Assembly (NCBI GenBank): GCA_964016885.1
Contig: OZ024741.1
Span: 91,512,001 to 91,576,000, forward strand
Direction: 5' to 3'
Origin: Eledone cirrhosa
Lineage: Eukaryota
DNA: 64,000 bases
Made by a program: the position numbers and the translations under genes. How positions within the stretch are numbered: position 1 is the stretch's first letter; each line of letters starts with the position of its first letter. The notes beneath the pieces are model-generated. The model did not search any database and had not been told where the DNA came from. It worked only from the letters and a program-made list of their open reading frames with translations. This document shows positions 10,707 through 56,310 of this stretch, in pieces.

Positions 10707-10902
10707 CATCTATATTAAAACTTTTATACTCTGCTATGTATTGAGTACCTTACTTACTGTGGTTACCTCCGATTCAACCCGGAATAACTTACCTATATAT
10801 ATATATATATATATACATACATATATATATATATATACATACATATATACATACATATATACATATATACATACATGCATATACATACATACATACATAT
10901 AC

Positions 10903-11495
10903 ATGGTGGCTGCCAACTCGTTTTCGAGTACGGCCACTACTTTATATCCATGTAAGAGAACTCCTACCGATGCGCTGAACGAGTGACTTTTTAGTCCAGC
11001 CAGTGACTTGAAAACTCTAGTACAGACACTACACCTGTGACAACCATTGACACATAGTGCTGGGCCCATGGTACCATGTGACGACAAGTGCAGAGAGATC
11101 TCCAGATACAAAGCAATGCCTGTGCCGTGAAACTTTTATAGTGAGCAAAGGCACTGCACAAAGCCAGTCCCACTCTCTCAACCAAGATGACATTTACCAA
11201 AAAGAAGAACAAGTCAACATCATTGGATACCATCAGAGTTGCAGGTGTTATATCAGAGTTTTCCTTCTCCTAGAATTCTGCCTTGACAAAGGCTAAGGGG
11301 TCATCTCTCCCGGTGATTTTGGATGGCCATTGACTCTTAAGAGCTCCTTTGCCCTTTGACAGGTTTTGTTTTTAGTCCTGCAGGATGTCCAAAGTCACCC
11401 TCCTCACCAAGAAACATTGGTGGGGTTGCCAGTTTAGTCGCCAACGACCCGACCATGAAACAGGTTGTACTGGGATACATGTTACAAGTAGCACC
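10903..11495 (-). mobile_element. Non-autonomous bipartite RTE derivative, copy 1
   Basis: RTE 5'UTR-like motif CTAGGAGAAGGAAAACTCTGA fused to a remnant C2H2 finger [17 protein letters not shown]; 3' end resembles the RTE at 53234; (GTAT)n tail. Confidence 0.8.
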
Positions 11496-11725
11496 ATATA
11501 CATACATATACATACATATACATACATACATACATATATACATACATATATACATACATATATACATATATACATACATATATACATATATACATATATA
11601 CATACATATATACATATATACATACATATATACATATATACATACATATATACATATATACATACATATATACATATATACATACATATATACATATATA
11701 CATACATATATACATACATACATAT

Positions 11726-12320
11726 ATGGTGGCTGCCAACTCGTTTTCGAGTATGGCCACTACTTTATATCCATGTAGGAGAACCCCTACCGATGCGCTG
11801 AACGAGTGTGACTTTTTAGTCCAGCCAGCGACTTGAAAACTCTGGTACAAACACTATACTTGTGACAATTATTGACACTTAGTGCTGGGCCCATGGTATC
11901 ATGTGACGACAAATGCAGGGAGATCTCCAGATATAAAGCAATTCCTGTGCCGTGAAGCTTTTATAGTGAGCAAAGGCACTGCACAAAGCCAGTCCCACTC
12001 TCTTAACCAAGATGATATTTACCAAAAAGAAGAACAAGTCAACATCATTGGATACCATCAGAGTTGCAGGTGTTATATCAGAGTTTTCCTTCTCCTAGAA
12101 TTCTGCCTTGACAAAGGCTAAGGGGTCATCTCTCCCGGTGATTTTGGATGGCCATTGACTCTTAAGAGCTCCTTTGCCCTTTGACAGGTTTTGTTTTTAG
12201 TCCTGCAGGATGTCCAAAGTCACCCTCCTCACCAAGAAACATTGGTGGGGTTGCCAGTTTAGTCGCCAACGACCCGACCATGAAACAGGTTGTACTGGGA
12301 TACATGTTACAAGTAGCACC
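11726..12320 (-). mobile_element. Non-autonomous RTE derivative, copy 2
   Basis: Near-identical to copy 1, separated from it by a CATA/TA array. Confidence 0.8.
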
Positions 12321-12578
12321 ATATACATACATATACATACATATACATACATACATACATATATACATACATATATACATACATATATACATATATACAT
12401 ACATATATACATATATACATATATACATACATATATACATATATACATACATATATACATATATACATACATATATACATATATACATACATATATACAT
12501 ATATACATACATATATACATATATACATACATATATACATATATACATACATATATACATATATACATACATACATAT

Positions 12579-12989
12579 ATGGTGGCTGCCAACTCGTTTT
12601 CGAGTATGGCCACTACTTTATATCCATGTAGGAGAACCCCTACCGATGCGCTGAACGAGTGTGACTTTTTAGTCCAGCCAGCGACTTGAAAACTCTGGTA
12701 CAAACACTATACTTGTGACAATTATTGACACTTAGTGCTGGGCCCATGGTATCATGTGACGACAAATGCAGGGAGATCTCCAGATATAAAGCAATTCCTG
12801 TGCCGTGAAGCTTTTATAGTGAGCAAAGGCACTGCACAAAGCCAGTCCCACTCTCTTAACCAAGATGATATTTACCAAAAAGAAGAACAAGTCAACATCA
12901 TTGGATACCATCAGAGTTGCAGGTGTTATATCAGAGTTTTCCTTCTCCTAGAATTCTGCCTTGACAAAGGCTAAGGGGTCATCTCTCCC
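12579..12989 (-). mobile_element. Non-autonomous RTE derivative, copy 3 (5'-truncated)
   Basis: Appears identical to the corresponding part of copy 2. Confidence 0.8.
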
Positions 12990-13088
12990 ATACATATATA
13001 CATACATATATACATACATATATACATACATACATACATATATACATACATATATACATACATACATATATACATACATACATACATA

Positions 13089-16000
13089 AAAACTAACTGA
13101 AAAGAAATATTACCCAAGCTGTGAATAACTTTAAATTTGATTCTGACAGAACTTTGTCGTAACTTTTAAAGAAGATCATCGACTATTTTGAAAAATAAAT
13201 ACGAAATATTAGTGAATAGACGAACTCATCATGGCAAAAAGTACAAGTCTCCTTCGACCAAATCGCAACTACAGCCGTTGTACACAGTGGAGCTACGAGC
13301 TTAACAAAGTATTATATGAAGCATACAAACAATCTGAACCCCAACAGTTCGGTTTTATGCAAAGGCTAAAAACTTTATGGAACTCCAAACACCCAGAATT
13401 AGACTTTTCTCCAAAGCATTTAAATGAACAGGCAAAACGTATCATTAGATGTAAATTGATACATCTAACGGATTGAGTGATACTACAAATACAGCCCTTG
13501 TAGACAACCACCCCACCTCCACTGACAGACAAAGAGAATGGCCAGCTAAATCTAACAGTGAACAGCTCACCAACAATTTTGCTGAAATCCATCCCACTTC
13601 CACTGAAGAACAGCGAGAAAGGTCAGCTGACTCTAGTAGTAATTGTCACCACATCAACAACGAGGCTGAAATTCATGACTCTACTGTACAAACAGAGCAC
13701 CAAAAACTTGTGGGCACCCTACAAGTGATATGGAACGATATGTTTCAAGAGATACACAGCCTTAATGTGAGTGACAGACCATACAACACTAGAGTCAGTA
13801 AAGAACCCACTAAATTGGAATTGGAAGCGGTGAACGAAATAGCTGGCAATTATCTGAAGGCTATACGATCTAAAGGTGTAGAAACGACATTTGAAACGCT
13901 TAATGTTTTGTTATATGTTTCAGCTGTCACATTGCTATCATATAACACACATCTAAAACCACGCAATCAAGATACAAACAGAAAGCCTGAACCAGCGTGG
14001 ATGCGAAATTTAAAAACCAAAATGTTGTCCCTGAGACGAAGTATCTCACACATCGCAGTCGTTATGAAATGCAACATAGAGAGCAACTTCACACGACACC
14101 AGGAAGACCTAAAGAAAAAGTTAGAGAGACGATTTGGAGATACAAAATTTAAAACTTTGAACTCCAAATTACACCAGTTGAAACAACAACTGCTACAACA
14201 GAAAGACTAAAATATAAGTCAACAGCACATAAACGACAAGTGCTAAATAGATTGTTTGCCAGAGATCCTAAATCAGTTTATCGCAGCTTCGGTGGCAAAA
14301 GCTCAATCCCTGTAAACGACACTCCTTCAAAAGAACAGGTTGAGAGCTACTGGAGATCTGTATGGGAAACGGATGACGGATTCAACAGACAAGCTAATTG
14401 ACTAAAAGAACTGGAACAGGACTACTGCCAACATGTCCAGACAAAACAATATGACATAGATGGGTCAATACTGGAAACAGCTCTACAGAAAATGTCGAAT
14501 AGGAAATCACCAGGCCCAGACCTCATTACAGGATACTGGTTGAAGAATTTCACTTTCTATCGGCAAGATCTCATACGGCTGTTTACAGAAACCATTGAGG
14601 GCACACAAATACTGCCCAGATGGTTATCAACTGCCACTACTGTCCTCATTCCCAAAAATAGCCAAACCGCCCTTGCTAAAAATTACCGCCCAATTGCCTG
14701 CCAAAACATCATGTATAAATTATATACTGGGTGCCTTAACCAGTTCTTACAGGATCACTGTGCTACCAACAACATCATAACACCTGAGCAAGCTGGTGGA
14801 AAGAGGGAGGTGTGGGGTTGCATAGATCACCTACTAACTAACAAAATGATTCAGGAAAAAACAACAAAGAATCGCAGAAACATGACTGTAGTGTGGCTGG
14901 ACTATCAAAAAGCATTTGATAGTGTACCTCATGGGTGGATTATTAAGGCTTTACAGTTAGCTAAAGTCCCACAACCATTGGTAGCTGCTGTTGAACGCCT
15001 GACCAAGAACTGGTACACCAATTTGATCCTTAGAGGTGAGAAGGAGCAGGTTAAGACTGATAAGATACATTACCAGAAGGGCATCTTTCAGGGTGATAGC
15101 TTGTCAGTGCTACTCTTCGTTCTCTCACTGAATCCACTATCTTACCTACTCAGGAAACAAGGTGGACAAAGAAGTGGGCCCAGAAGTATCTCCCATCTTT
15201 TCTTTGTTGATGACCTGAAGTTGTATGGGCCAAATATCAATGACATCAAGAAACAATTGGACCTCATTACACAATTTTCAACCGACATCAAAATGAAATT
15301 TGGTGAGTCAAGTGTGCATATTTGGCAGTAAAACGTGGAAGAGCTGTGCCCTCCTCTAGAAATCTAGAGATGAACGGCCTGACAATACAACCTCTGCAAT
15401 CAGGTGACAACTACAGATATCTTGGACAGGATGAGAATGTCAGATATGATGGACCCATAAATAAGGAGAGAACCAGAACTGAATACCTCAGAAGAGTAAA
15501 GAAAATATGGTCATCAGAACTGTCAGCATACAACAAATACATTGCCCACAATACTTATGCTGTGCCAATTCTAACGCCAACATTTGGCCTACTGAACTGG
15601 TCATTGCAAGAACTAAGTGAGATGGATGTTAGAACTCGAAAACTTCTCAGTGTTACTGGCAACTTTAACATCAATGGTGATGTGGATAGGCTATACTTCT
15701 CACGCAAGGAAGGTGGCCGGGGTCTAAAATCAATATTAACAACATATGAGACCCGGATAGTAACACTGAAGCAACACCTTCAACAGAGGAAAAAGGTTGG
15801 CAACCATCTTGCCCAGGTTTATGAGCATGAAAAAAGAAATATCATTAGAATAGCGACTGATCTGGAGGAGAGATATGGAATAAAGCCTGATATAAATCTC
15901 TCACCCAGAGAAATCGGAAGATCCTATTCAATGTTCAAACAAGATAAGAAAATTGACCAACTTACAGAAAAAGTTGTGCATGGATACTTGAGGCGTAAAA

Positions 16001-16814
16001 CACAGACCATAGAGGGGATAAACCACTCAAAAAGCCTGGCATGGAGTTCCGACAAGTTTATGACATCACACCTTGAGGGATATCTCTATGCAATACAGGA
16101 ACAAGAACTCCCTACCAAATATCTTCTGCACAAAAGAGGAGGGCCAGCAGCTGACAATAAATGTAGGCTATGTAAAACAAAGATCGAGGATGTAAGCCAC
16201 ATTGTTGCCAGCTGCGAAAGAATGTCATCTCGCTACTACCTCCCCATGAGACACGATGGGATAGCTAGAACCATCTGGAACGCACTTCGGAAAACAAAAT
16301 TAACAACAAACGAGGAAGAATATATTGAGACAGATGGCACTAAGGAATACTGGTGGAACCTGAAAATAAAAACTGCCACCAAATTAAAGCACAACCGGCC
16401 TGATATTGTAGTTTGGGACCACACATTGAAAACGTGTTCTGTTGTGGAGATCAGCTGCCCACTTGATGTAAACGTTGTCAGAAAAATACAGGAGAAGGAG
16501 GACATCTACGGACCATTGATGAGGAGTTTACAAATCCAGTATCCAAGATACACCTTTAGCTTCATACCCATCATTATTGGAGCTACGGGTTATATACCAA
16601 CCCGCTTGGACCAAAGTATGACTGAACTTGGATTTGCGGACAAAAAGCGCAGCTCCCTAATTCATAGTCTGCAAATGGCTGCGATAGCTGGCACCTTCAA
16701 AATTTGCAAAACATTCTTGCGATTCAAGGGATGACAATTTCTTTTCTTTTACAACCTTGCCACCAGGAAGGTGGCCGCTCAAAAAAATATACTCAAAATT
16801 AAGAGAAAGAGAAA

Positions 16815-16815
<1 letters not shown>
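13089..16815 (+). mobile_element. Near full-length R4/Dong-clade RLE non-LTR retrotransposon in a (CATA)n/(TA)n array
   Basis: Single disrupted ORF with N-terminal Myb-like block, RT, CCHC and PD-type endonuclease; ~140-bp 5'UTR and ~80-bp 3'UTR ending GAGAAAGAGAAAA. Confidence 0.93.
13231..16734 (+). pseudogene. Disrupted RT/restriction-like endonuclease ORF of Dong copy 1
   Basis: Motifs [63 protein letters not shown]; apparent frameshift ~13470; versus copy 2: 4-nt deletion ~14191, TGG>TGA ~14399, 1-nt deletion ~15309. Confidence 0.92.
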
Positions 16816-16868
<53 letters not shown>

Positions 16869-17066: not shown

Positions 17067-17200
17067 CGTTTCTGAATTTGTTTAGCAAGATTCTTTATCT
17101 GAAATCGTGTGTTGAAACCGATATTGTTATACTTTGGGAGGGTCATTTGGCAACATGACCCTCCCAAAGTATAACAATTATATATATATATATATATATA

Positions 17201-17426
17201 CTGAAGTAAAAGTTGAGTAAAAATATCCAAGAGAAAGAGCACTCAGTCCATAGGACGAGTTTAGTATAAATAATTATAACAGTAACATAAACAGGTACTC
17301 AAGGGTTCTGGGCCCCAATTCGTTCAGCCTGTCATGAGAAAAACATTTTCTGATGACAAGCTGAACGAATTGGGGCCCAGAACCCAACGAAACTTGAGTA
17401 CCTGTTTATGTTACGGTGATAATTAT
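17201..17426 (-). mobile_element. PLE-like tail with fold-back (arms ~17270-17341 / 17346-17426) between (TA)n tracts
   Basis: Near-perfect palindrome; right arm has CTGAACGA-ATTGGG..CCCAAC-GAAA-CTTGAG-TA/CCTG (HHR-like with an extra core nucleotide); left arm lacks 8 nt including GAAA. Confidence 0.55.
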
Positions 17427-17433
17427 ATATATA

Positions 17434-19203: not shown

Positions 19204-20173
19204 AAACATTCATGTTTGGTTTAGATGTTAGAATGCAATCTATGCAGCTAGCTGGCCATTTGCCATAGGGATTGACTCGAAAACTCTGGTAATTGCGGGC
19301 GTTATTGAAGGATTCTGCTTTAGAGTTTTTATTTACAGTGTCCCCCACCCCATCTCGAGAAAGTGCGCGGATTAGTGGGTAGGATGTTCGGTTTGCGATC
19401 GTAAGTCGTGAGTTAGATTCCTGCACCGGGCAGCGCTATTTGTCATTTAACATTGTTTGTGTGTTTTTCAAATAGTAAGAATAATTTTTTGACGCTGTAA
19501 TTGTGTTAGGTTGAAAGCATGGTCTCAGATAAAGTCACTTCCCAGACAAGTACAACAGTGGCTAAAATAGCACTTTCTCAATGTAATTTACTTTTGTTTA
19601 ACAGTCTCAGATTAAGTCACTTGCTTGGCAAGTACACGCCCACCCCTCAACCTCCTCCCCCCAAAACAACAAAAAACAATGTTATTCTCATAAAAAACAA
19701 ATGTTATGAAAATATGTTATATCTTTCAATACAGTTAATTCATGCTGAAGATCGCATACTTCTGTAATTACAAATATTTGTTGTAAGTTTATATTATCTT
19801 TACTTTATAGTTATTTATTTATAATTATTTATGACAGTTTTACAGCTGACAAAATGACAGCAATTTTCCTTCATCTTTTTTTAGCCGTAACTTTTCTTTT
19901 CCTTTCGCAAAGAAGCAAATGTTGACAACTAGTCATAAATGATTACACGCCTAAATCAACCCGACAGTCACTTGAATTTTTAAAATCGTGTTTATTTTTG
20001 GTATGTTATTATATTGTTATTTATTGCCATGCTACTACTATGCAATAATAGACTTGCTGAAATCTCTAGTGGAGAAAATTGCTTCATTATGTATTTACCA
20101 TTAAGATAGCTCAAGAAATAGACGGATATATTAGATAGCTAGAAAGGTAGATAGATAGACACACACACACACA

Positions 20174-20859
20174 ATATATATATAGATATATAGATATAGA
20201 TATATAGATATATATATATATATATAGATATATATATATAGATATATATATATAGATATATATATATAGATATATATATAGATATATATATATAGATAGA
20301 TATATATAGATAGATATATATAAATATATAGATATATATATATATATATATATATATAGATATATATATATATATAGATATATATATATATATATATAGA
20401 TATATATATATAGATATATATATATATATATATAGATATATATATATATATAGATATATATATATATATAGATATATATATAGATATATATATATATATA
20501 GATATATATATATATATAGATATAGATATATATATAGATATATATATATATATAGATATATATATATATATAGATATATATATATATATAGATAGATATA
20601 GATATATATAGATATATATAGATATATATATAGATATATATAGATATATATATATATAGATATATATATATATATATATATATAGATATATATAGATATA
20701 TATATAGATATATATAGATATATATATATATAGATATATATATATATATATAGATATATATATATATATATATATATAGATATATATATATATATATAGA
20801 TATATATATATATAGATATATATATATATATATATATATAGATATATATATATATATAT

Positions 20860-20892
<33 letters not shown>

Positions 20893-20919
20893 TATATATA
20901 TATATATATAGATATATAT

Positions 20920-21016
<97 letters not shown>

Positions 21017-21145
21017 TATATATATATATATATATATATATAGATATATATATATAGATATATATATATATATATATATAGATATATATAGATATATATA
21101 TATATATAGATATATATAGATATATATATATATATAGATATATAT

Positions 21146-21184
<39 letters not shown>

Positions 21185-21283
21185 TATATATATATATATA
21201 TATAGATATAGATATATATATATATATATATAGATATATATATATATATATATATATATAGATATATATATATATATATATAT

Positions 21284-21372
<89 letters not shown>

Positions 21373-21799
21373 TATATATATATATATATATATATAGATA
21401 TATATATATATATAGATATATATATATATATAGATATATATATATATATAGATATATATATATATATAGATATATATATATATATAGATATATATATATA
21501 TATAGATATATATATATATATAGATATATATAGATATATATATATATATAGATATATATATATATATATATATATAGATATATATATATATATATATAGA
21601 TATATATATATATATAGATATATATAGATATATATATATATATATATAGATATATATATATAGATATATAGATATATAGATATATATATATATATAGATA
21701 TATATATATATATATAGATATATATATATATATATAGATATATATATATATATATAGATATATATATATATATATATATAGATATATATATATATATAT

Positions 21800-21866
<67 letters not shown>

Positions 21867-22005
21867 TATATAGATATATATATATAGATATATATATATA
21901 TAGATATATATATATATATATATAGATATATAGATATATATATATAGATATAGATATATATATATATATAGATATATAGATATATAGATATATATATATA
22001 GATAT

Positions 22006-22038
<33 letters not shown>

Positions 22039-22404
22039 TATATATATATATATAGATAGATATATATATATAGATATATATATATATATAGATATATATA
22101 GATAGATATAGATATATATATATATATAGATATATATATATATATAGATATATATATATATATATAGATATATATATATATATAGATATATATATATATA
22201 TAGATATATATATAATATATATATATATATAGATATATATATATATATAGATATATATATATATATATAGATATATATAGATATATATATATATATATAG
22301 ATATATATAGATATATATATATATAGATATATATATATATATAGATATATATAGATATATATATATATATATATATATATAGATATATATATATATATAT
22401 ATAT

Positions 22405-22463
<59 letters not shown>

Positions 22464-22668
22464 TATATATATATATATATATATATAGATATATATATAT
22501 ATAGATATATATATATATATATATATATAGATATATATATATATATATATATAGATATATATATATATAGATATATATATATATATAGATATATATATAT
22601 ATATAGATATATATATATATATAGATATATATATATATATAGATATATATAGATATATATATATATAT

Positions 22669-22701
<33 letters not shown>

Positions 22702-23104
22702 TATATAGATATATATATATAGATATATATATAGATATATATATATATATATATATAGATATATATATATATATAGATATATATATATAGATATATATAT
22801 AGATATATATATATATATAGATATATATATATATATATATATAGATATATATATATATAGATATATATATATATATAGATATATATATATATAGATATAG
22901 ATATATATATATATATATATATAGATATATATATATATAGATATAGATATATATATATATATATATAGATATATAGATATATATATATAGATATAGATAT
23001 ATATATATATATAGATATATATAGATAGATATAGATATATATAGATATATATAGATATATATATAGATATATATAGATATATATAGATAGATATAGATAT
23101 ATAT

Positions 23105-23141
<37 letters not shown>

Positions 23142-23158
23142 TATATATATATATATAT

Positions 23159-23209
<51 letters not shown>

Positions 23210-23226
23210 TATATATATATATATAT

Positions 23227-23299
<73 letters not shown>

Positions 23300-23320
23300 T
23301 ATATATATATATATATATAT

Positions 23321-23415
<95 letters not shown>

Positions 23416-23613
23416 TATATATATATATATATAGATATATATATATATATAGATATATATATATATATATAGATATATATATATATATATAGATATATAT
23501 ATATATATAGATATATATATATATATAGATATATATATATATATAGATATATATATATATATAGATATATATATATATATATATAATATATATATAGATA
23601 TATATATATATAT

Positions 23614-23650
<37 letters not shown>

Positions 23651-23995
23651 TATATATATATATATAGATATAGATATATATATAGATATATATATATATA
23701 TATATAGATATATATATATATATATATATATAGATATATATATATATATAGATATATATATATATATATATATATATAGATATATATATATATATATATA
23801 TATAGATATATATATATATATAGATATATATATATATATATAGATATATATATATATATAGATATATATATATATATATAGATATATATATATATATAGA
23901 TATATATATATATATATAGATATATATAGATATATATATAGATATATATAGATATATATATATATATAGATATATATATATATATAGATATATAT

Positions 23996-24034
<39 letters not shown>

Positions 24035-24041
24035 TATATAT

Positions 24042-24082
<41 letters not shown>

Positions 24083-24113
24083 TATATATATATATATATA
24101 ATTATATATATAT

Positions 24114-24178
<65 letters not shown>

Positions 24179-24259
24179 TATATATATATATATAGATATA
24201 TATATATATATAGATATATATATATATATAGATATATATAGATATATATATATATATAT

Positions 24260-24304
<45 letters not shown>

Positions 24305-24356
24305 TATATATATAGATATATATATATATATAGATATATATATATATATATATAGA

Positions 24357-24397
<41 letters not shown>

Positions 24398-25458
24398 TAT
24401 ATAGATATATATAGATATAGATATATATATATATATATATATAGATATATAGATATATAGATATATATATATATAGATATAGATATATATATATATATAG
24501 ATATATATATATATAGATATAGATATATATATATATATAGATATATATATATATATAGATAGATATATATATATAGATATATATATATATATAGATATAT
24601 ATATATATAGATATATATATATATATAGATATATATATATATATAGATATATATATATATATATAGATATATATATATATATATAGATATATATATATAT
24701 ATAGATATAGATATATATATATATAGATATATATATATATATAGATATATATATATATAGATATAGATATATATATAGATATATATAGATATAGATATAT
24801 ATAGATATATATATATATATATAGATATAGATATATATATATATAGATATATATATATATATATAGATATATAGATATATATATATATATATATAGATAT
24901 ATATATATATATATAGATATATATATATATATATAGATATATATATATATATATATAGATATATATATATATATAGATATATATATATATATATAGATAT
25001 ATATATATATATATAGATATATATATATATATATATAGATATATATATATATAGATATATATATATATATATATATAGATATATATATATATATATATAT
25101 AGATATATATATATATATATATATAGATATATATATATAGATATAGATATATATATATAGATATATATATATATATAGATATATATATATATATAGATAT
25201 ATATATAGATATAGATATATATATAGATATAGATATATATATAGATATATATATATATATAGATATAGATATATATATAGATATATATATAGATATATAT
25301 ATATATATAGATATATATATATATATAGATATATATATATATATAGATATATATATATATATAGATATATATATATATATAGATATATATATATATATAG
25401 ATATATATATATATATAGATATATATATATATATAGATATATATATATATATATATAT

Positions 25459-25505
<47 letters not shown>

Positions 25506-25780
25506 TATATATATATATATAGATATATATATATATATAGATATATATATATATATATATATAGATATATATATATATATAGATATATATATATATATAT
25601 AGATATATATATATATATATAGATATATATATATATATATAGATATATATATATATATATAGATATATATATATATATAGATATATATATATATATAGAT
25701 ATATATATATATATAGATATATATATATATATATAGATATATATATATATAGATATATATATATAGATATATATATATAT

Positions 25781-25813
<33 letters not shown>

Positions 25814-25968
25814 TATATATATATATATATATATATAGATATATATATAGATATATATATATAGATATATATATAGATATATATATAGATATAGATATAT
25901 ATATATAGATATATATATAGATATATATATATATAGATATATATATATATAGATATATATATATATAT
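20174..25968. repeat. ~5.8-kb (TA)n array punctuated by GA units
   Basis: Direct reading; interruptions are almost all T>G on the + strand. Confidence 0.97.
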
Positions 25969-27099: not shown

Positions 27100-27169
27100 A
27101 TTTAGGAACAGTTTAGGTATGATACATTTTATTACTAATTATATCTAAATGTTTCTTCTCTCTTCATAA

Positions 27170-32501: not shown

Positions 32502-32947
32502 TTTATTAAAATAACAGATTAAAGTTTAAGCAAAGAATCGCTGCTTTCACCCTTAACGGGATCTTCTGAAACTAACAAAGTCAATCTGTAAACGCAGAAC
32601 TGGATATTTCAAAAAACGTTGCAACCGGAGGAAGACAGGAAGACGATACTTTGGTTCGTGGTAACGTTCGCTGTCAAAGAACGGGAAAAAACGAATTATA
32701 CGTCATTAATAGGAGCGGTGAAAAACAATTACGCGCAAAGACAAAACCACGTTTATGGTATAAAAGAGGTCGTAGACTAATGTTCTCTTAGGTGGTGCAT
32801 AGAGACGTTCTCTGGCAATGAACGAAAAAACGGTTCTTATATATTTGATATATAATTTCCTTATCGAGCCCTCTTTGGATTTTAGTCTTCAATTTTATTA
32901 TTATTACTATATATATAATACAATATGTGTCTCTATGTTGAGAAAAA

Positions 32948-33285
32948 ATTTGGTCGTTCTGACTGCTGCTAGTTATAGCGGTAGCAGATTGACCTGCCTG
33001 CCTCTGCTTCTATCTTTGCACTCGGCCCTTGAAAAAATTGATTCCACTCCATTTACTCTCATCTCGGGAACAATTTTGAATAGCGCCAGTTTGTAATTTA
33101 AGTTCGAGAATTTTATATTCTTCGAATGTAAAGAACCTTCTGACGAGAATCTTTCTTTGCAACGAAGGCCGTATGGACTCCGTTTATTTTTGAGATTCGA
33201 AACCGATTCGGTAAAGGTAACTATAGTAGGTAATGTTAATTTTTAAAAATTTATTTTGAAACTTTTTCCTTATTTGCTAAACCTT

Positions 33286-33288
<3 letters not shown>
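32948..33288 (+). mobile_element. PLE-like pLTR family X, copy 1, ending at (TA)n
   Basis: Clearly homologous but diverged relative to 47528-47868; contains an HHR. Confidence 0.7.
33135..33218 (+). ncRNA. Type I hammerhead with extended helix II
   Basis: ACCTT-CTGACGA-GAATCT..AGATTC-GAAA-CCGattCGG-TA/AAGGT; canonical core. Confidence 0.85.
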
Positions 33289-36652: not shown

Positions 36653-36693
<41 letters not shown>

Positions 36694-42679: not shown

Positions 42680-42763
42680 TAATAAGCAACATAAGATAAT
42701 TATTTCATTTACCATTCATCAGAAAAATATTATGAGCTATTGAAATAATTATCTTATGTTGTT

Positions 42764-42768
<5 letters not shown>
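42680..42768. repeat. 28-bp inverted repeat next to (TA)n enclosing a degenerate CTGATGA..GAAA motif (-)
   Basis: TAATAAGCAACATAAGATAATTATTTCA / TGAAATAATTATCTTATGTTGTTTATTA. Confidence 0.7.
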
Positions 42769-42809
<41 letters not shown>

Positions 42810-46422: not shown

Positions 46423-46554
46423 AGCTAGAATAAGTAACATTGTGAGCATATTTGTCTACAATGTAGACAAATATGCTTACAATGTTACTTATTCTAGCTT
46501 GTGTTAAAATGTAAGGAAGATGTAGACTCTACATCTTCCTTACATTTTAACACA
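46423..46554. repeat. Two abutting palindromes (38-bp and 27-bp arms, 1-nt loops)
   Basis: 46423-46460/46462-46499 (1 mismatch) and 46500-46526/46528-46554 (perfect). Confidence 0.95.
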
Positions 46555-47030: not shown

Positions 47031-47131
47031 TAACGTATGTTTACGCGCCTCCACCACCATACACCCACCCACTACACACACATATATATATATATACATG
47101 CATATGTATATACACATTCTTAGATATTTAT

Positions 47132-47164
<33 letters not shown>

Positions 47165-47192
47165 CACATTCTTAGATATTTATACATACAGA

Positions 47193-47239
<47 letters not shown>

Positions 47240-47527
47240 CTTCTTAGATATTTATACATACAGATATATGTATATATATATATATACACATTCTTAGATA
47301 TTTATACATACAGATATATGTATATATATACACACATACACACATACACACTTACACACACATATATATATATACATACATTCATATATATATACATACG
47401 CACATATATATATATACATACATACATATATACTTCTGACGAGAAATATACATGTGTCCCTATACGTTTTTTTGCGTGTAGGGATATATACTTTATTATT
47501 ATTAATCCGCCCCTGGTCGACATAAAA

Positions 47528-47868
47528 TTTGGTCATTTTGACTGCTGCTATTTATAGTGGTAGTAGATTGACCTCCCTGCCTTTGCCTTCTATCTTTGCA
47601 CACGTCACTAGACAGAATTGCTTCCACATCATTCATTCTCATCTCGGGAACAATTTTGAATACCGCCAGCTCGTAATTCGAACTCAGGAATTTTATATTC
47701 TCCGAGTGAAAAGAACCTTCTGACGAGAGTTTATCTTTTCAATGGAGGCCCGCAAGGACTATCCATTTAGTTTTGAGACTCGAAACCGTTTCGGTAAAGG
47801 TAACCATAGTAAGTACAGTGAATTATTTGAAATTTATTTTGAAACTTTCTTATTTGCTAAATCTTGAT
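47528..47868 (+). mobile_element. PLE-like pLTR family X, copy 2, ending at a TA/CATA array
   Basis: Homologous to 32948-33288. Confidence 0.7.
47715..47801 (+). ncRNA. Type I hammerhead with extended helix II
   Basis: ACCTT-CTGACGA-GAGTTT..AGACTC-GAAA-CCGtttCGG-TA/AAGGT. Confidence 0.85.
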
Positions 47869-48019
47869 TATACATACATATATATATATATACATACATA
47901 TATATATACATATATATACATACATACATATATCTATACATACATACATACATATACACATACATACATACATATATATACATACATACATACATACATA
48001 TATACATATATAGCTATAT

Positions 48020-48050
<31 letters not shown>

Positions 48051-48185
48051 CGTAGATACATATATATATATACATACATACATATTTATATATATACATA
48101 CATATTTATATATATACATACATACATATATATATACATACATACATATATATATACATACATACATATATATATATACATACAT

Positions 48186-48667
48186 ATGGCACTAAGGAAT
48201 ACTGGTGGAACCTGAAAATAAAAACTGCCACCAAATTAAAGCACAACCGGCCTGATATTGTAGTTTGGGACCACACATTGAAAACGTGTTCTGTTGTGGA
48301 GATCAGCTGCCCACTTGATGTAAACGTTGTCAGAAAAATACAGGAGAAGGAGAACATCTACGGACCATTGATGAGGAGTTTACAAATCCAGTATCCAAGA
48401 TACACCTTTAGCTTCATACCCATCATTATTGGTGCTACGGGTTATATACCAACCCGCTTGGACCAAAGTATGACTGAACTTGGATTTGCGGACAAAAAGC
48501 GCAGCTCCCTAATTCATAGTCTACAAATGGCTGCGATAGCTGGCACCTTCAAAATTTGCAAAACATTCTTGCGATTCAAGGGATGACAATTTCTTTTCTT
48601 TTACAACCTTGCCACCAGGAAGGTGGCCGGTCAAAAAAATATACTCAAAATTAAGAGAAAGAGAAAA
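48186..48667 (+). mobile_element. R4/Dong element copy 3, heavily 5'-truncated
   Basis: Near-identical to 16334-16815; flanked by CATA arrays. Confidence 0.93.
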
Positions 48668-48865
48668 CATACATATATATAGATATACATACATATATAT
48701 ATACATACATACATATATATACATATATATACATATATATACATAATATATATACATACATACATATACATACATACATACATATACATACATACATACA
48801 TATACATACATACATACATATACATATATATACATACATACACATATATATACATACATACATAT

Positions 48866-48896
<31 letters not shown>

Positions 48897-49060
48897 CATA
48901 CATACATACATACATATATACATACATACATAATACATATATACATACATATATACATACATATATACATACATACATACATACATACATACATACATAC
49001 ATACATACATACACACACATATATACATACATATATATATATACATATATATATACCTAC

Positions 49061-49606
49061 ATGGTGGCTGCCAACTCGTTTTCGAGTACGGCCACTACTA
49101 TATATCCATGTAGGAGAACCCCTACCGATGCGCTGAACGAGTGTGATATTTTAGTCCAGCCAGCGACTTGAAAACTCTGGTACAAACACTACACTTGTGA
49201 CAATTATTGACACATTGTGCTGGGCCCATGGTACCATGTGACGACAAGTGCAGAGAGATCTCCAGATATAAAGCAATGCCTGTGCCGTGAAGCTTTTATA
49301 GTGAGCAAAGGCACTGCACAAAGCCAGTCCCACTCTCTTAACCAAGATGATATTTACCAAAAAGAAGAACAAGTCAACATCATTGGATACCATCAGAGTT
49401 TCAGGTGTTATATCAGTTTTCCTGCTCCTAGAATTCTGCCTTGACAAAGGCTAAGGGGTCATCTCTCCCGGTGATTTTGGATTGCCATTGACTTTAAGAG
49501 CTCCTTTGCCCTTTGACAGGTTTTGTTTTTAGTCCTGCAGGATGTCCAGAGTCACCCTCCAGTTTAGTAGCCAACGACCCGACCATGAGACAGGTTGTAC
49601 TGGGAT
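49061..49606 (-). mobile_element. Non-autonomous RTE derivative, copy 4
   Basis: Homologous to copies 1-3 with a small internal deletion; CATA arrays on both sides. Confidence 0.8.
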
Positions 49607-49647
49607 ATATATACATACATACATACATACATACATACATACATACA

Positions 49648-49677
<30 letters not shown>

Positions 49678-49678
<1 letters not shown>

Positions 49679-52600
49679 GACAGACCATACAACACTAGAG
49701 TCAGTAAAGAACCCACTAAATTGGAATTGGAAGCGGTGAACGAAATAGCTGGCAATTATCTGAAGGCTATACGATCTAAAGGTGTAGAAACGACATTTGA
49801 AACGCTCAATGTTTTGTTATATGTTTCAGCTGTCACATTGCTATCATATAACACACATCTAAAACCACGCAATCAAGATACAAACAGAAAGCCTGAACCA
49901 GCGTGGATGCGAAATTTAAAAACCAAAATTTTGTCCCTGAAACGAAGTATCTCACACATCGCAGTCGTTATGAAATGCAACATAGAGAGCAATTTCACAC
50001 GACACCAGGAAGACCTAAAGAAAAAGTTAGAGAGACGATTTGGAGATACAAAATTTAAAACTTTGAACTCCAAATTACACCAGTTGAAACAACAACTCAC
50101 AGCTACAATAGAAAGACTAAAATATAAGTCAACAGCCCATAAACGACAAGTGCTAAATAGATTGTTTGCCAGAGATCCTAAATCAGTTTATCGCAGCTTC
50201 GGTGGCAAAAGCTCAATCCCTGTAAACGACACCCCTTCAAAAGAACAGGTTGAGAACTACTGGAGATCTGAATGGGAAACGGATGACGGATTCAACAGAC
50301 AAGCTAATTGGCTAAAACAACTGGAACAGGACTACTGCCAACATGTCCAGACAAAACAATATGACATAGATGGGTCAATACTGGAAACAGCTCTACAGAA
50401 AATGTCGAATAGGAAATCGCCAGGCCCAGACCTCATTACAGGATACTGGTTGAAGAATTTCACTTTCTATCGGCAAGATCTCATACGGCTGTTTACAGAA
50501 ACCATTAAGGGCACACAAGAACTGCCCAGATGGTTATCGACTGCCACTACTCTCCTCATTCCCAAAAATAGCCAAACCACCCTTGCTAAAAATTACCGCC
50601 CAATTGCCTGCCAAAACATCATGTATAAATTATATACTGGGTGCCTTAACCTGTTCTTACAGGATCACTGTGCTACCAACAACATCATAACACCTGAGCA
50701 AGCTGGTGGAAAGAGGGAGGTGTGGGGTTGCATAGATCACCTACTAACTAACAAAATGATTCAGGAAAAAACAACAAAGAATCGCAGAAACATGACTGTC
50801 GTGTGGCTGGACTATCAAAAAGCATTTGATAGTGTACCTCATGGGTGGATTATTAAGGCTTTACAGTTAGCTAAAGTCCCACAACCATTAGTAGCTGCTG
50901 TTGAACGCCTGAGCAAGAACTGGTACACCAATTTGATCCTTAGAGGTGAGAAGGAGCAGGTTAAGACTGATAGGATACATTACCAGAAGGGCATCTTTCA
51001 GGGTGATAGCTTGTCAGTACTACTCTTCGTTCTCTCACTGAATCCACTATCTTACCTACTCAGGAAACAAGGTGGACAAAGAAGTGGGCCCAGAAGTATC
51101 TCCCATCTTTTCTTTGTTGATGACCTGAAGTTGTATGGGCCAAATATCAATGACATCAAGAAACAATTGGACCTCATTACACAATTTTCAACCGACATCA
51201 AAATGAAATTTGATGAGTCCAAGTGTGCATATTTGGCAGTAAAACGTGGAAGAGCTGTGCCCTCCTCTAGAAATCTAGATATGAACGGCCTGACAATACA
51301 ACCTCTGCAGTCAGGTGACAACTACAGATATCTTGGACAGGATGAGAATGTCAGATATGATGGACCCATAAATAAGGAGAGAACCAGAACTGAATACCTC
51401 AGAAGAGTAAAAAAAATATGGTCATCAGAACTGTCAGCATACAACAAATACATTGCCCACAATACCTATGCTGTGCCAATTCTAACGCCAACATTTGGCC
51501 TACTGAACTGGTCATTACAAGAACTAAGTGAGATGGATGTTAGAACTCGAAAACTTCTCAGTGTTACTGGGAACTTTAACATCAATGGTGATGTGGATAG
51601 GCTATACTTCTCACGCAAGGAAGGTGGCCGGGGTCTAAAATCAATATTAACAACATATGAGACCCGGATAGTAACACTGAAGCAACACCTTCAACAGAGG
51701 AAAAAGGTTGGCGACCATCTTGCTCAGGTTTATGAGCATGAAAAAAGAAATATCATTAGAATAGCGACTGATCTGGAGGAGAGATATGGAATAAAGCCTG
51801 ATATAAATCTCTCACCCAGAGAAATCGGAAGATCCTATTCAATGTTCAAACAAGAAAAAAAAATTGACCAATTTACAGAGAAAGTTGTGCATGGATACTT
51901 GAGGCGTAAAACACAGACCATAGAGGGGATAAACCACTCAAAAAGCCTGGCATGGAGTTCCGACAAGTTTATGACATCACACCTTGAGGGATATCTCTAT
52001 GCAATACAGGAACAAGAACTCCCTACCAAATATCTGCTGCACAAAAGAGGAGGGCCAGCAGCTGACAATAAATGTAGGCTATGTAAAACAAAGATCGAGG
52101 ATGTAAGCCACATTGTTGCCAGCTGCGAAAGAATGTCATCTCGCTACTACCTCCCCATGAGACACGATGGGATAGATAGAACTATCTGGAACGCACTTCG
52201 GAAAACAAAATTAACAACAAACGAGGAAGAATATATTGAGACAGATGGCACTAAGGAATACTGGTGGAACCTGAAAATAAAAACTGCCACCAAATTAAAG
52301 CACAACCGGCCTGATATTGTAGTTTGGGACCACACATTGAAAACGTGTTCTTTTGTGGAGATCAGCTGCCAACTTGATGTAAACGTTGTCAGAAAAATAC
52401 AGGAGAAGGAGGACATCTACGGACCATTGATGAGGAGCTTACAAATCCAGTATCCAAGATACACCTTTAGCTTCATACCCATCATTATTGGTGCTACGGG
52501 TTATATACCAACCCGCTTGGACCAAAGTATGACCGAACTTGGATTTGCGGACAAAAAGCGCAGCTCCCTAATTCATAGTCTACAAATGGCTGCGATAGCT

Positions 52601-52726
52601 GGCACCTTCAAAATATGCAAAACATTCTTGCGATTCAAGGGATGACAATTTCTTTTCTTTTACAACCTTGCCACCAGGAAGGTGGCCGGTCAAAAAAATA
52701 TACTCGAAATTAAGAGAAAGAGAAAA
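49678..52726 (+). mobile_element. R4/Dong element copy 2, 5'-truncated
   Basis: Highly similar to copy 1 from ~13772 onward; flanked by (CATA)n. Confidence 0.95.
49679..52645 (+). CDS. Uninterrupted but 5'-truncated RT + CCHC + RLE ORF (no native start)
   Basis: Open frame with all RT and RLE motifs; the ORF-track start at 49595 runs through upstream repeat DNA. Confidence 0.85.
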
Positions 52727-52758
52727 CATATACATACATACATACATACATACATACA

Positions 52759-52794
<36 letters not shown>

Positions 52795-52813
52795 TACATA
52801 TATATATACATAT

Positions 52814-52846
<33 letters not shown>

Positions 52847-53062
52847 TACATATATATATACATATATACATATATATATACATATATACATATATATATA
52901 CATATATATATACATATATATATACATATATACATACATATATATATACATATATACATACATATATATATACATATATACATACATATATATATACATA
53001 TATACATACATATATATATACATATATACATACATACATACATACATACATACATACATACA

Positions 53063-53098
<36 letters not shown>

Positions 53099-53233
53099 TA
53101 CATACATACATACATATATACATATATATATACATATATATATACATATATATATACATATATATATACATATATACATATATATATACATATATACATA
53201 CATACATACATACATACATACATACACACATAC
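52727..53233. repeat. (CATA)n/(TA)n array between the Dong 3' end and the RTE 3' end
   Basis: Direct reading; similar arrays at 10794-10902, 11496-11725, 12321-12578, 12990-13088, 47870-48185, 48668-49060, 49607-49677. Confidence 0.97.
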
Positions 53234-56200
53234 ATGATGGCTGCAAACTCTGCCAAGAGTATTGCAATCGCATGTCAGATTCAGATGTGGGACGCTCGGA
53301 TATGGCTTTTTAACCCTGCTAGAGACTTGCACTCCTTCACACACTGACGACAACTATGGATCTCCCTGGCTTGAGGTCCTGCGCCAGGTTGCCCGTGAAC
53401 CCTCGCAACACCGTGGATATCATATTTCACTGGTTCTCTTTGAACATGGCTGCGACTGTGGCTCCTGAGACCAGATTTGCTCAAGCAAATGTTTCCACAC
53501 TCAGGACACTTCAATTCAATGGAGACACCCATCATTTCGAGAGATACACCAGGGCATTGCTTACGCACATCCCGTTTGATCTTATCGTGCTCTATGCGTC
53601 TGTCCTCAAACTTATGGACCCCATCATTCGCCATTCCACGCCAAATCTCTCTTTCAAGAGCTTCTATCTCCGAGTCAGCCATCATCAAACCAGTTTTGTT
53701 TTCAATGTGTCCTTTACACAATCCTTGAATCGGAGCTTTGGCTTGTGAGGTGGTCTCTTACCCTCACAAAGCTCGCCATACAAGAGTTGTTTTGGGATTC
53801 GATCATCCTCCATTCTGCAGAGGTATCCGGTCCATCGCAAACACCGTTGGTGGATGATACTCTCAATGCTACGAAACTCACTTCTCTCAACATAACTCAC
53901 ATGCATCTGCCACTTGATACCTAGCATCTTTCTGAGACACTTGCTGGTGAAACCATTCCAGTCTGTGGATATGCCGTTTGTAGGCAACCCATGTCTCACA
54001 TGCATACAGCAAAGCTGGCAGTACACATGCAGCATACACTCTCACCTTGGTCCTTATTGTGATTCCTCGCCTGCACCAAAGACGGTCGTTGAGCCTTCCA
54101 AATGACTCACTTGCCTTACTAACACGCAGACCAACTTCCGCATCCAGAGAGCAGGTCACACTCAGAGTACTCCTCAAATACACAAATGTGTCAGCAGCCT
54201 TCAGCTTTTGACCGTATACGTGTATGGAGGGTTCATTGAAAACTTTATCCAGAGCAGGTTGGTACATGACGACAGTCTTCTTCAGACTGATTGTCAGTCC
54301 CAAAGCACTGCACGCATTGGAAAAAGAATCCATAAGGTGTTGCATGTCACTCTGGGAGTGTGCAAAGAGATCACAATCATCTGCATATAAAAATTCTCTG
54401 ATCAAGGTACTCAGTACCTTAGTGTTGGCAGTGAGACGCCTAAGGTTAAACAGCCTGCCGGAAGTGCGATCTCTGAGATAGATACCGTGTTGACAATCTT
54501 TGAAGGCCACGAAGAACACCTTCGCGAAATACAAGGCAAACAAAGTCGGTGTAGGTATATCACCCTGCTTGACACCATTTTCAACCGAGATTGGCTCAGA
54601 CAGATTACCTCCAACATTCACTCATGCCTGCATGCCATTGTGGAAGAGTTTCAGAATGTTCACAAACTTTTCAGGACAGCCCAATCTCTCCAAAATAACC
54701 GACAAAGCCTTCCGATTAACGGTCTCAAATGCCTTGGTCAGATCGACAAAAACTTGGTATAAGTCCATGCGCTGCTCAATGCATTTCTTTTGAAGTTGTT
54801 TGGCCGAGAAGATCATGTCAACAGTGCCTCTGCCATTCCTAAAGCCACATTGGGACTCAGGAAGTACCTCAACAGCAATGTGCTCTATCAATCTGTCCAA
54901 CAATATCCTGCACAAGATCTTCCCAGCCACAGATAGCAGTGAGATACCTCTGTAGTTGCCACAGTCATCTTTGGCTCCCTTTCCTTTGTAAAGTACCACC
55001 ATAAATACATCTTTCCAATCCTATGGCACATCTTCATTCCAAACATTCACAAAGAGATCAGTGAGGCGGTTTAAGAAGTTATCACCAGCACACTTGAAAA
55101 TCTCGGCACTCAGTCCATCCATTCCAGGTGACTTGCCGCTGTTTAATTTGGCAATGGCCTTCGCCACCTCACCAAATGAAGGAGGATCAGGCATTGCCAG
55201 CCTTGTAGGTCTGGATGGAATCAACCGGATGAACTCATCATCAATTGGTGATGGTCTGTTGAGAAGCTCATCAAAGTGGTCATGCCACCTGATCAGGATT
55301 TCCTTCGGATGTCTGAGCAATTCCTTGCCGTCCCTGGAGCGAAGTGGTGATATTTGTGAACCGGTCGGACCATACACCTCCCTGAGCAGACTGTATAGGA
55401 GTTTGTATCATGTCTATCTGAGGCCTTCTGGATTTCATCAGCCTTTTGGCTCCACCAGGTATCCTGCATGGCTCTCAATCGATGTTGCACAGGTGCCTTG
55501 ATCTGCCTGAAGGTCCGGTCACTTCCGCCAGAACGTGTCTCACACAACAATGACGTCAGCAATTCCCCCTTACTTTGGGCTTCACAACAAATTGAAACTT
55601 GGCGCTTCAGACGATGATCAGTCCAACATTCCGCGCCTCGCAATACACGAACCAACGCGATATCCCTGATATCACGTTTTCTCATTAAAACGAAGTCAAT
55701 AAGGTGCCACTTCTTGGAACCTGGATGCATCCAAGTTGTCTTATATTTGTCTTCTGCTGAAAGAGCGTGTTCCCAACAACAAGATCCATCTCAGTGCACA
55801 TCTGCAACAGAAGTAGGCCATTGTTATTGCACTTACCTACTCCATGCCTGCCCATCACACTCCAAGCTTCCCAGTCATTACCAACACGTGCATTAAAATC
55901 ACCAAGGATGACAATCTTGTCTGCATAAAGTATACCATGGATGACCTCTCTCAAAGACATGTAGAAACTTAGTTTTTCATCATCACTGGCACACATAGTA
56001 GGAGCGTACACACTGACCAGAGTCACAAAGCGGTTTTGAATCAGAGGAACTCTCATGGACATTATCCGATCATTGAATCCACAAGGAAGATTTTCCAGCT
56101 TTGAGACGATTGCAAATGCGACCCCTGCCTCTCTCCTATGACCCTATGCTCCACCACTCCAATAGAAGGTATATCCTCCCTTCTGTTCTGTGAATTGACC

Positions 56201-56247
56201 CTAAAGGGGAACTGGTCAACATCATCGGATACTTCCAAAGCCGCAGG

Positions 56248-56248
<1 letters not shown>
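53234..56248 (-). mobile_element. RTE-clade LINE, 5'-truncated within APE, multiply frameshifted
   Basis: SVYAPT, LGDFNARVG, WHLIDF, CWTDHRL (APE); NYRGISLL, VDLTKAF, GVKQG, YADD (RT); RIPKQLLYGEL; two C-terminal C2H2 fingers; GTAT tail; 5' end abuts (TG)n. Confidence 0.92.

Positions 56249-56310
<62 letters not shown>

What the first reader, a model, noticed from the sequence alone, without database searches (positions are those of the whole stretch)
10794..56310. Two retrotransposon trains: Dong (+) and RTE (-) alternate on opposite strands of the same CATA microsatellite
Seen: train 1 (10794-16866) is PLE tail / array / RTE-derivative x3 / array / Dong / (TA)n. Train 2 (47870-56310) is PLE tail / array / Dong / array / RTE-derivative / array / Dong / array / RTE / (CA)n. 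All three Dong copies are on + with 3' ends followed by CATA. All five RTE-type copies are on - with 3' ends in (GTAT)n, giving tail-to-tail pairs at 48667|49061 and 52726|53234. RTE-type 5' ends also abut microsatellite, and both trains begin right after an HHR-bearing PLE-like tail. Established: R4/Dong RLE elements can target simple repeats, whereas RTEs have short-repeat tails but are not usually considered site-specific. Inference: a feedback loop in which RTE tails create Dong targets and RTE RNA tails anneal and prime in CATA arrays, possibly at Dong-made nicks.
Basis: partly seen in the sequence, partly recalled or inferred. Interest (0 to 1): 0.72.

Follow-up and report, generated by a model that had tools for sequence, protein, structure and literature searches.

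The report
Two retrotransposons share one microsatellite
Two unrelated kinds of jumping gene sit stacked in the same short DNA repeat (CATA), each always on its own strand; one belongs to a group (RTE) thought to insert at random, and it likely finds these repeats by pairing its RNA tail with them.

Summary
The layout is real. Three Dong-like copies lie on + and five RTE-type copies on -, all inside CATA arrays of one polarity. Corrections: only four RTE-type insertions are independent (D2 is a recombination duplicate); only train 2 alternates; hammerhead elements also occur without a train. Six independent, differently truncated 5' junctions (3 Dong, 3 short RTE derivative 'D') all abut CATA, which makes up 2.9% of non-element 16-mers here. 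Reads from two RAD libraries show that D is very abundant and has (ATAC)n as consensus flank at both ends. A rough model puts the CATA share of 5' flanks at 30-60%, so this is a strong bias, not strict specificity. Best reading: both families insert independently into the same microsatellite. Dong likely does so by its restriction-like endonuclease, and D likely by pairing its (UAUG)n tail with the nicked CATA strand. Opposite polarity means they prime on opposite strands, which argues against RTE using Dong's first nick. Three arrays lie 5' of every flanking LINE, so tails are not the only source of targets. Genome-wide Dong-RTE adjacency could not be tested. I found no report of such two-sided flanks for an RTE family. 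New variant of a known kind.

The parts
10572..10793 (+). Hammerhead-bearing repeat (core 10662-10700) left of train 1; PLE origin inferred, not shown
   Evidence: descriptor scan; its first 82 bp recur inverted at 9310-9391
10794..10904 (.). Array A0: (TA)11 then CATA type
10905..11494 (-). D1, short RTE-derived element, about 14 nt short of the family's 5' end
11495..11727 (.). Array A1 (CATA polarity)
11728..12319 (-). D2, recombinant: 3' half equals D3, 5' half equals D1; not an independent insertion
   Evidence: 0 of 304 and 0 of 290 differences; Fisher p 8e-7
12320..12580 (.). Array A2, copy of A1 with 28 extra bp
12581..12989 (-). D3, 5'-truncated (409 bp)
12990..13088 (.). Array A3, head-to-head between D3 and Dong1; cannot be a tail of either
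13089..16815 (+). Dong1, near full length, frame broken (4-bp and 1-bp deletions relative to Dong3, a stop)
16816..16866 (.). Array A4: CATACA then (TA)n
47082..47432 (.). TA/CA/CATA array left of the hammerhead element; train 2's array extends here
47433..47866 (+). Hammerhead-bearing repeat (core 47720-47796) with array on both sides
   Evidence: 82.8% to 32937-33286
47868..48187 (.). Array B0, on the 5' side of Dong2
48188..48667 (+). Dong2, last 480 bp only
48668..49062 (.). Array B1, tail-to-tail between Dong2 and D4
49063..49606 (-). D4, truncated a little further than D1, 27-bp internal deletion
49607..49677 (.). Array B2, pure (ATAC)16, head-to-head between D4 and Dong3
49678..52726 (+). 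Dong3, 5'-truncated, reading frame open to its stop (RT, CCHC knuckle, restriction-like endonuclease motifs)
52727..53234 (.). Array B3, tail-to-tail between Dong3 and the RTE
53235..56248 (-). Long RTE-type LINE (APE, RT, two C2H2 fingers), 5'-truncated, many stops and frameshifts
56249..56335 (.). Array B4: (CA)n then (TA)n; 5' flank of the RTE
32937..33286 (+). Control: paralog of the train-2 hammerhead element (core 33140-33213), followed by a TA array, no train

Best explanation
The trains are CATA microsatellites that hold several differently truncated retrotransposon copies in fixed orientation, likely from repeated independent insertion: Dong likely cuts the repeat with its own endonuclease and primes on the TATG strand, while the RTE-derived family D likely primes on the CATA strand because its (UAUG)n RNA tail can pair with it. 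Shown: orientation, junctions, different truncation points, CATA at both ends of D in reads, a 3' stem-loop shared by D and the long RTE, and duplication of D2/A2 by recombination. Inferred: an RTE endonuclease nicks TA-rich DNA loosely; only nicks on the CATA strand give a primer that the tail can hold, which gives both the target bias and the polarity. Each insertion adds tail and duplicated target, slippage and unequal crossover lengthen the array, and the site becomes a larger target for both families. The link between the families is a shared, growing target, not a shared enzyme. The hammerhead elements are further tenants of microsatellite-rich DNA.
For: 6 of 6 independent Dong/D 5' junctions are CATA type and of one polarity, against a 2.9% background. 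Every cluster with 7 or more perfect ATACATAC 8-mers lies inside the trains; the largest outside has 4. No D or Dong copy lies in the far longer TA/TAGA arrays such as 20132-25968. In RAD reads, 3' loose ends give (ACAT)n in 17797 and 18598 reads (agreement 0.9 and 0.89). 5' loose ends give about 14 more element letters and then (ATAC)n in 7560 and 7782 reads (agreement 0.77 and 0.80). Joints show D copies truncated at 11972 and 12278 running through CATA into the next D 3' end in the same orientation (tables 5c and 7). D and the long RTE keep the same ACTC/GAGT stem and terminal motif with different loops. Tail-target pairing is already proposed for RTEs (PMC6007223, passages), and TA recognition by the Bov-B endonuclease is proposed in PMC13295347 (passages).
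Against: The bias is partial. My mixture model gives only about 30-60% in-phase CATA 5' flanks, under an assumed definition of 'agreement'. A minor subfamily (998 and 1121 reads, agreement 0.69 and 0.70) has a mixed AT-rich flank, and contigs of run X4 give non-array 5' flank consensuses (57 and 29 contigs). RAD reads are anchored at AATT sites, which disfavours AT-rich unique flanks, and reads are not loci. The long RTE's own 5' flank is (CA)n, not CATA. In a published call set for an octopus RTE, ACATAC occurs once in about 211 site rows, while TATATA occurs 17 times and ordinary target duplications are present (family identity unknown, most TSDs null, short-read calls disfavour repeats). 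Dong flanks rest on three copies only. No empty allele was seen, so long pre-existing arrays cannot be told from short seeds that expanded later.
Confidence: 0.58

Rival explanations
1. The partner RTE's APE endonuclease itself recognises CATA/ACAY and cuts one strand, as proposed for Waldo elements of the R1 clade; the matching tail is a consequence of read-through or slippage, not the guide.
For: Fixed polarity and in-phase junctions fit a sequence-specific nick equally well. APE-type elements that target ACAY exist (PMC3812793, passages).
Against: A large share of copies seems to lie outside arrays. Only Tx1 and R1 are listed as site-specific APE clades (PMC13295347). The intact partner RTE is not in the window, so its endonuclease was not examined.
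Confidence: 0.17
2. There is no active choice by the RTE family. Copies insert loosely at TA-rich or micro-homologous sites; a short duplicated target and the tail then expand by slippage, and copies survive or are sampled preferentially in arrays.
For: Non-array flanks exist. RAD sampling can enrich array-flanked copies. RTE insertion is described as not sequence-specific (PMC2887409, Discussion). Passive accumulation near CA repeats is described for Drosophila Waldo.
Against: None of the copies sits in the much longer TA/TAGA arrays of the window. Polarity is fixed at 5' junctions. Same-orientation D-CATA-D joints recur elsewhere in reads.
Confidence: 0.14
3. One reading: D and RTE RNAs are reverse-transcribed at nicks made by the Dong endonuclease, a cross-clade dependence.
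For: Both trains hold both families; two tail-to-tail pairs exist.
Against: The primer strands are opposite, so only a Dong second-strand nick or a full break could serve. That second-strand cleavage follows priming in R2-type elements is recalled, not tested here. The RTE family has its own APE domain. D-D joints through CATA occur in reads without a Dong between them. The decayed RTE probably predates the intact Dong3.
Confidence: 0.05
4. The trains grew mainly by recombination or gene conversion between arrays, or are partly assembly artefacts, rather than by insertion in place.
For: D2/A2 is such a duplicate, and D2 and D3 are 100% alike over 409 bp.
Against: The other seven copies have distinct sequences and distinct 5' truncation points with a constant 3' end, the pattern of target-primed reverse transcription. 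A1 and A2 differ in length.
Confidence: 0.06

Closest known systems
Dong (R4 clade) of Bombyx, Anopheles and Biomphalaria; Dong-R4 families of Octopus
   Same: Single-ORF RT plus restriction-like endonuclease element inserted in a simple repeat. Dong targets TAA repeats (PMC3812793). Dong-R4 is the largest recently active LINE group by insertions in O. vulgaris (PMC13282606 Table 1).
   Different: The target here is (CATA)n in 3 of 3 copies. The octopus papers as read give no target site. Clade placement was not tested by a tree.
RTE-clade LINEs with microsatellite tails (lepidopteran RTEs, Bov-B, octopus RTE-2_OV)
   Same: APE + RT (+ C2H2) single ORF, very short 3' UTR, simple-repeat tail that makes new microsatellite (PMC2887409, PMC9115989). 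Tail-target pairing proposed (PMC6007223).
   Different: [quoted passage not shown] Here the tail repeat is the consensus on both sides, in fixed polarity.
Bipartite non-autonomous RTE derivatives (RTESINE1/2, WALLSI3, MAR4_MD; Kojima 2018, PMC5786205)
   Same: About 600 bp, non-coding, RTE 3' end with C-terminal zinc-finger remnant and a piece like the RTE 5' region.
   Different: No microsatellite targeting is mentioned in the passages read.
Waldo (R1 clade, ACAY), Mino, Kibi, Koshi, Togen, Naiad/Neptune PLEs
   Same: Retroelements that insert in microsatellites; Waldo has nearly the same target.
   Different: Other clades. The passages read describe no two clades using opposite strands of one array.

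Membership tests
R4/Dong clade | Single ORF with RT, no APE domain | tested here: met
   Pfam RVT_1 2e-25, no Exo_endo_phos hit; best PDB matches are R2 proteins
R4/Dong clade | C-terminal CCHC knuckle, RH(D) motif and PD-(D/E)xK endonuclease | tested here: met
   visible in P0001, near-invariant in the alignment with 11 of 120 listed relatives; motif names recalled
R4/Dong clade | RT phylogeny groups with named R4/Dong rather than NeSL, HERO or R2 | not testable with these tools
   the 120 listed relatives carry no clade names; no named reference sequence was available
R4/Dong clade | Insertion in a specific repeat | tested here: met
   3 of 3 copies have CATA directly after the 3' end and CATA type before the 5' end; window only
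R4/Dong clade | 5' HDV-like ribozyme | tested here: inconclusive
   no Rfam hit; two copies are clearly 5'-truncated and Dong1's true start is unknown
RTE clade (long copy) | APE + RT in one ORF of about 1100 aa | tested here: met
   Pfam RVT_1 and a weak Exo_endo_phos_2 hit (E 0.0034); collinear at about 55% with an intact 1137-aa APE-RT protein over residues 96-1135; same domain set as RTE-2_OV
RTE clade (long copy) | Short 3' UTR ending in a simple repeat | tested here: met
   about 60 nt then (TATG)n
RTE clade (long copy) | RT phylogeny with named RTE elements | not testable with these tools
   relatives carry no clade names
RTE clade (usual behaviour, not a defining trait) | Non-specific insertion with 6-12 bp target duplication | tested here: not met
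   both flanks are microsatellite in all window copies, so duplications cannot be read; reads show a strong CATA bias
Bipartite non-autonomous RTE | 3' part from an RTE | tested here: met
   tblastn hits from 32 of 120 RTE-type relatives, the best 25 all to the C-terminal finger, best E 7e-7; shared terminal stem-loop
Bipartite non-autonomous RTE | 5' part from an RTE 5' region | tested here: inconclusive
   55 nt at 74.5% (E 1e-5) to the first bases of the long RTE copy; no protein hit to N-termini of relatives
Bipartite non-autonomous RTE | No small-RNA-derived head | tested here: inconclusive
   no Rfam tRNA, 5S or 7SL hit at E up to 1; decayed heads can be missed
Penelope-like element | Type I hammerhead with short stem III | tested here: met
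   stem II keeps pairing with changed letters between 33140 and 47720
Penelope-like element | RT and GIY-YIG ORF, pseudo-LTR structure | tested here: inconclusive
   no such ORF of 120 aa or more beside the motifs; a 12-nt repeat of the hammerhead start at 47432

The most novel reading that the evidence does not exclude
An abundant RTE-derived family is aimed by its own RNA tail. The tail both selects (CATA)n sites and makes more of them, and an unrelated Dong family exploits the other strand of the same self-propagating target. The two clades thereby build the genome's long CATA arrays together: RNA-guided target choice in a LINE clade held to be non-specific.
Probability: 0.3. Interest if true: 0.72.

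Novelty: new variant of a known kind. Interest (0 to 1): 0.5.

Why it matters
What the simple-repeat tails of RTE, CR1 and L2 elements are for is an open question; published support for tail-target pairing is one or two bases of microhomology. A family with many copies whose tail repeat is also its flank, in one polarity, gives a natural and directly testable case (flank census, tail swap). It would add RTE to the clades with repeat-biased insertion, give Dong a new target, and help explain long microsatellites and hard-to-assemble regions in genomes like this one. If tails steer insertion, that also bears on programmable LINE insertion.

Tried and rejected
No whole genome is held, so no genome-wide count. 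Metagenome scans with the Dong protein and a D motif, and a viral-contig scan with a Dong 3' motif, found nothing. Rfam gave only microsatellite-driven and other sub-threshold matches (131 rows, none at gathering score, no ribozyme). Minimum-energy folds of the hammerhead regions were no better than shuffles (z -1.25, -0.09, +0.46), so the call rests on the descriptor scan. The 3' stem-loop of the long RTE alone is not significant (z -0.26) while D4 and D1 are (z -3.85, -2.80). The ESM Atlas gave only unnamed RVT_1 clusters. Five look-ups in earlier scan notes returned nothing. Run X1 (another organism label) holds only partial relatives of D and says nothing on flanks. Rejected: D mobilised by Dong in the + sense (its constant end and its truncations show the - strand is the RNA); five independent RTE insertions; one train being a duplicate of the other (copies and truncations differ); CATA carried only as a 5' leader of full-length D RNA (truncated copies also abut CATA); a causal role for the hammerhead elements.
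Full report
What is there. The window is microsatellite-rich animal DNA (33% G+C). It is probably from an octopod: the only relative of the Dong protein with an organism name is from Argonauta hians at 58%, and Dong-R4 and RTE are active LINE groups in Octopus (PMC13282606, parts 1-2 of 3 and a supplement search read; PMC9115989, passages and parts of one supplement). That is inference. Train 1 is array / D1 / array / D2 / array / D3 / array / Dong1 / array (10794-16866). Train 2 is array / Dong2 / array / D4 / array / Dong3 / array / long RTE / (CA)n (47868-56335). All Dong copies are on +, all RTE-type copies on -, and every array has its C on the + strand.

The elements. Dong3 has an open frame with RT (Pfam 2e-25), a CCHC knuckle and restriction-like endonuclease motifs conserved in 11 aligned relatives; its nearest solved structures are R2 proteins. 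The long - strand copy is a decayed APE-RT-C2H2 element, collinear at about 55% with an intact 1137-aa relative. The short family D (about 600 bp) carries the C-terminal finger remnant (hits from 32 of 120 RTE-type relatives) and a 55-nt piece like the start of the long copy (74.5%). It also ends in the same stem-loop and terminal motif as the long RTE, with a different loop. D is thus best read as a non-autonomous RTE derivative of a sister family, as in PMC5786205 (passages). Clade names rest on domain anatomy; no tree with named references was possible.

Independence. D1 and D2 differ at 0 of 304 columns in the 5' half and 19 of 288 in the 3' half; D2 and D3 differ at 0 of 290 there; arrays A1 and A2 align with one 28-bp gap. 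D2/A2 is therefore an unequal-crossover product (or in part an assembly product), leaving seven independent insertions. The three Dong copies are 98.2-98.7% alike with three different 5' ends.

Chance. CATA-type 16-mers are 1469 of 51455 non-element positions, 1321 of them inside the trains. All 6 independent Dong and D 5' junctions are of this type; the long RTE's is (CA)n; 2 of 3 Dong 3' 16-mers pass the strict test, and all 3 begin with CATA. The window was chosen for this feature and the arrays may have grown after insertion, so this shows association, not its cause. No D or Dong copy lies in the longer TA/TAGA arrays.

Beyond the window. I laid 4 of the 10 listed runs on D2 with short flanks. 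In two RAD libraries labelled as the same organism as the best holders, 110224 of 12467656 and 114586 of 12785554 reads lay on D. Loose ends past the 3' end have consensus (ACAT)n (17797 and 18598 reads, agreement 0.9 and 0.89). Loose ends past the 5' end show about 14 more element letters and then (ATAC)n (7560 and 7782 reads, 0.77 and 0.80). Joints show D copies, including ones cut at 11972 and 12278, continuing through CATA into another D 3' end in the same orientation. Against this: a minor subfamily (998 and 1121 reads) has a mixed flank, and contigs of X4 have non-array 5' flanks (57 and 29 contigs). A mixture simulation puts the in-phase CATA share at about 30-60% of 5' reads, with the tool's 'agreement' assumed to be mean plurality frequency. 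That is ten or more times the window background but not strict specificity. Biases run both ways: RAD anchoring at AATT loses AT-rich unique flanks, while the tool may drop repeat-rich reads as human-like. Reads are not loci, and both libraries come from one study. Dong flanks could not be checked outside the window.

Mechanism. In target-primed reverse transcription (established knowledge) the primer strand is complementary to the RNA 3' end. For D and the RTE the primer is the CATA strand, which their (UAUG)n tail can pair with. For Dong it is the TATG strand. Opposite orientation therefore means opposite first nicks, which argues against D borrowing Dong's first nick. The simplest account is two independent routes to one target: Dong by its endonuclease, D by loose nicking in TA-rich DNA plus tail pairing. 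Protein recognition of CATA by the RTE endonuclease remains a real rival. Feedback is plausible, since each insertion adds array, and every long perfect CATA cluster of the window is in a train. But arrays A3, B2 and B0 face only 5' ends, and A3 lies 5' of all D copies, so RTE tails are not the sole source. In train 2 the decayed RTE's tail points into the train and may have seeded it; this is inferred from its decay against the open frame of Dong3.

Hammerheads. The cores at 10662 and 47720 are real by descriptor (6 hits at 5 loci against 1 in 20 shuffles). Such elements also occur at 9718, 10007/10172 and 33140, all near microsatellites and without trains. They look like further microsatellite tenants, as reported for some PLE clades (PMC8557442, passages). 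PLE identity is not shown.

Comparison. Microsatellite targeting is known for Dong (TAA), Waldo (ACAY), Mino, Kibi and Koshi (PMC3812793, passages) and for Togen and some HERO families (PMC4640811, passages). RTE tails make one-sided microsatellites at sites described as non-specific (PMC2887409, abstract and Discussion). Tail pairing is proposed, with animal microhomology of one or two bases (PMC6007223, passages). Bov-B is rarely flanked by its tail repeat (PMC13295347, passages). A published octopus RTE call set shows some (TA)n sites, one CATA site and ordinary sites among about 211 rows, of which I saw about 22. Nine paper searches found no description of an RTE family with two-sided CATA flanks or of Dong and RTE sharing opposite strands. 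The library lacks most subscription journals, Repbase notes and the Zenodo repeat library of PMC13282606, any of which could hold it.

Verdict. A real, non-random structure with a sound core: a repeat-biased RTE-derived family and a Dong family on opposite strands of (CATA)n. New variant of a known kind; interest 0.5.

Noticed in passing
9454-9821 and 9956-10277: Two palindromic elements between (TA)n arrays that carry hammerhead cores (9718; 10007 on - and 10172 on +, one per arm): MITE-like inverted dimers of a ribozyme-bearing repeat.
   Followed up: partly
12215-12319 (- strand) and the matching part of D1: The 5' region of D has a short hairpin followed by CTAA and a 5-bp pairing with an upstream segment, like the 3' half of an HDV-like ribozyme; P1 does not pair well. 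By eye only; no Rfam hit.
   Followed up: no
56200-56248: The first 48 nt of the long RTE copy match the middle of D, not the endonuclease of intact relatives, whose alignment starts right after a pyrimidine run and AG; possibly an internal deletion or splice.
   Followed up: no
16757-16775: Hairpin in the Dong 3' UTR (region z -2.6), present in all three copies.
   Followed up: partly
20132-25968: 5.8-kb TA/TAGA array with no inserted element.
   Followed up: no
25969-27169 and 29420-30738: Perfect recent duplications beside TA arrays: 495 bp direct plus 118 bp inverted, and a 136-bp inverted pair, all 100% identical; possible assembly artefacts.
   Followed up: no
36060-37314: 476-bp tandem repeat (2.6 copies, 98%) containing short TA/CATA arrays: a second case of array-mediated duplication.
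   Followed up: no
17265-17431, 17123-17178, 42676-42772, 46423-46554: Further short palindromes, most next to (TA)n arrays.
   Followed up: no
28145-28296, 40657-40800, 62945-63055: Old dispersed SINE-sized repeat, about 70% alike.
   Followed up: no
reads on 11708-12341: A second D subfamily with a different 5' end and a more mixed flank; comparing the two subfamilies may date the rise of the CATA bias.
   Followed up: partly
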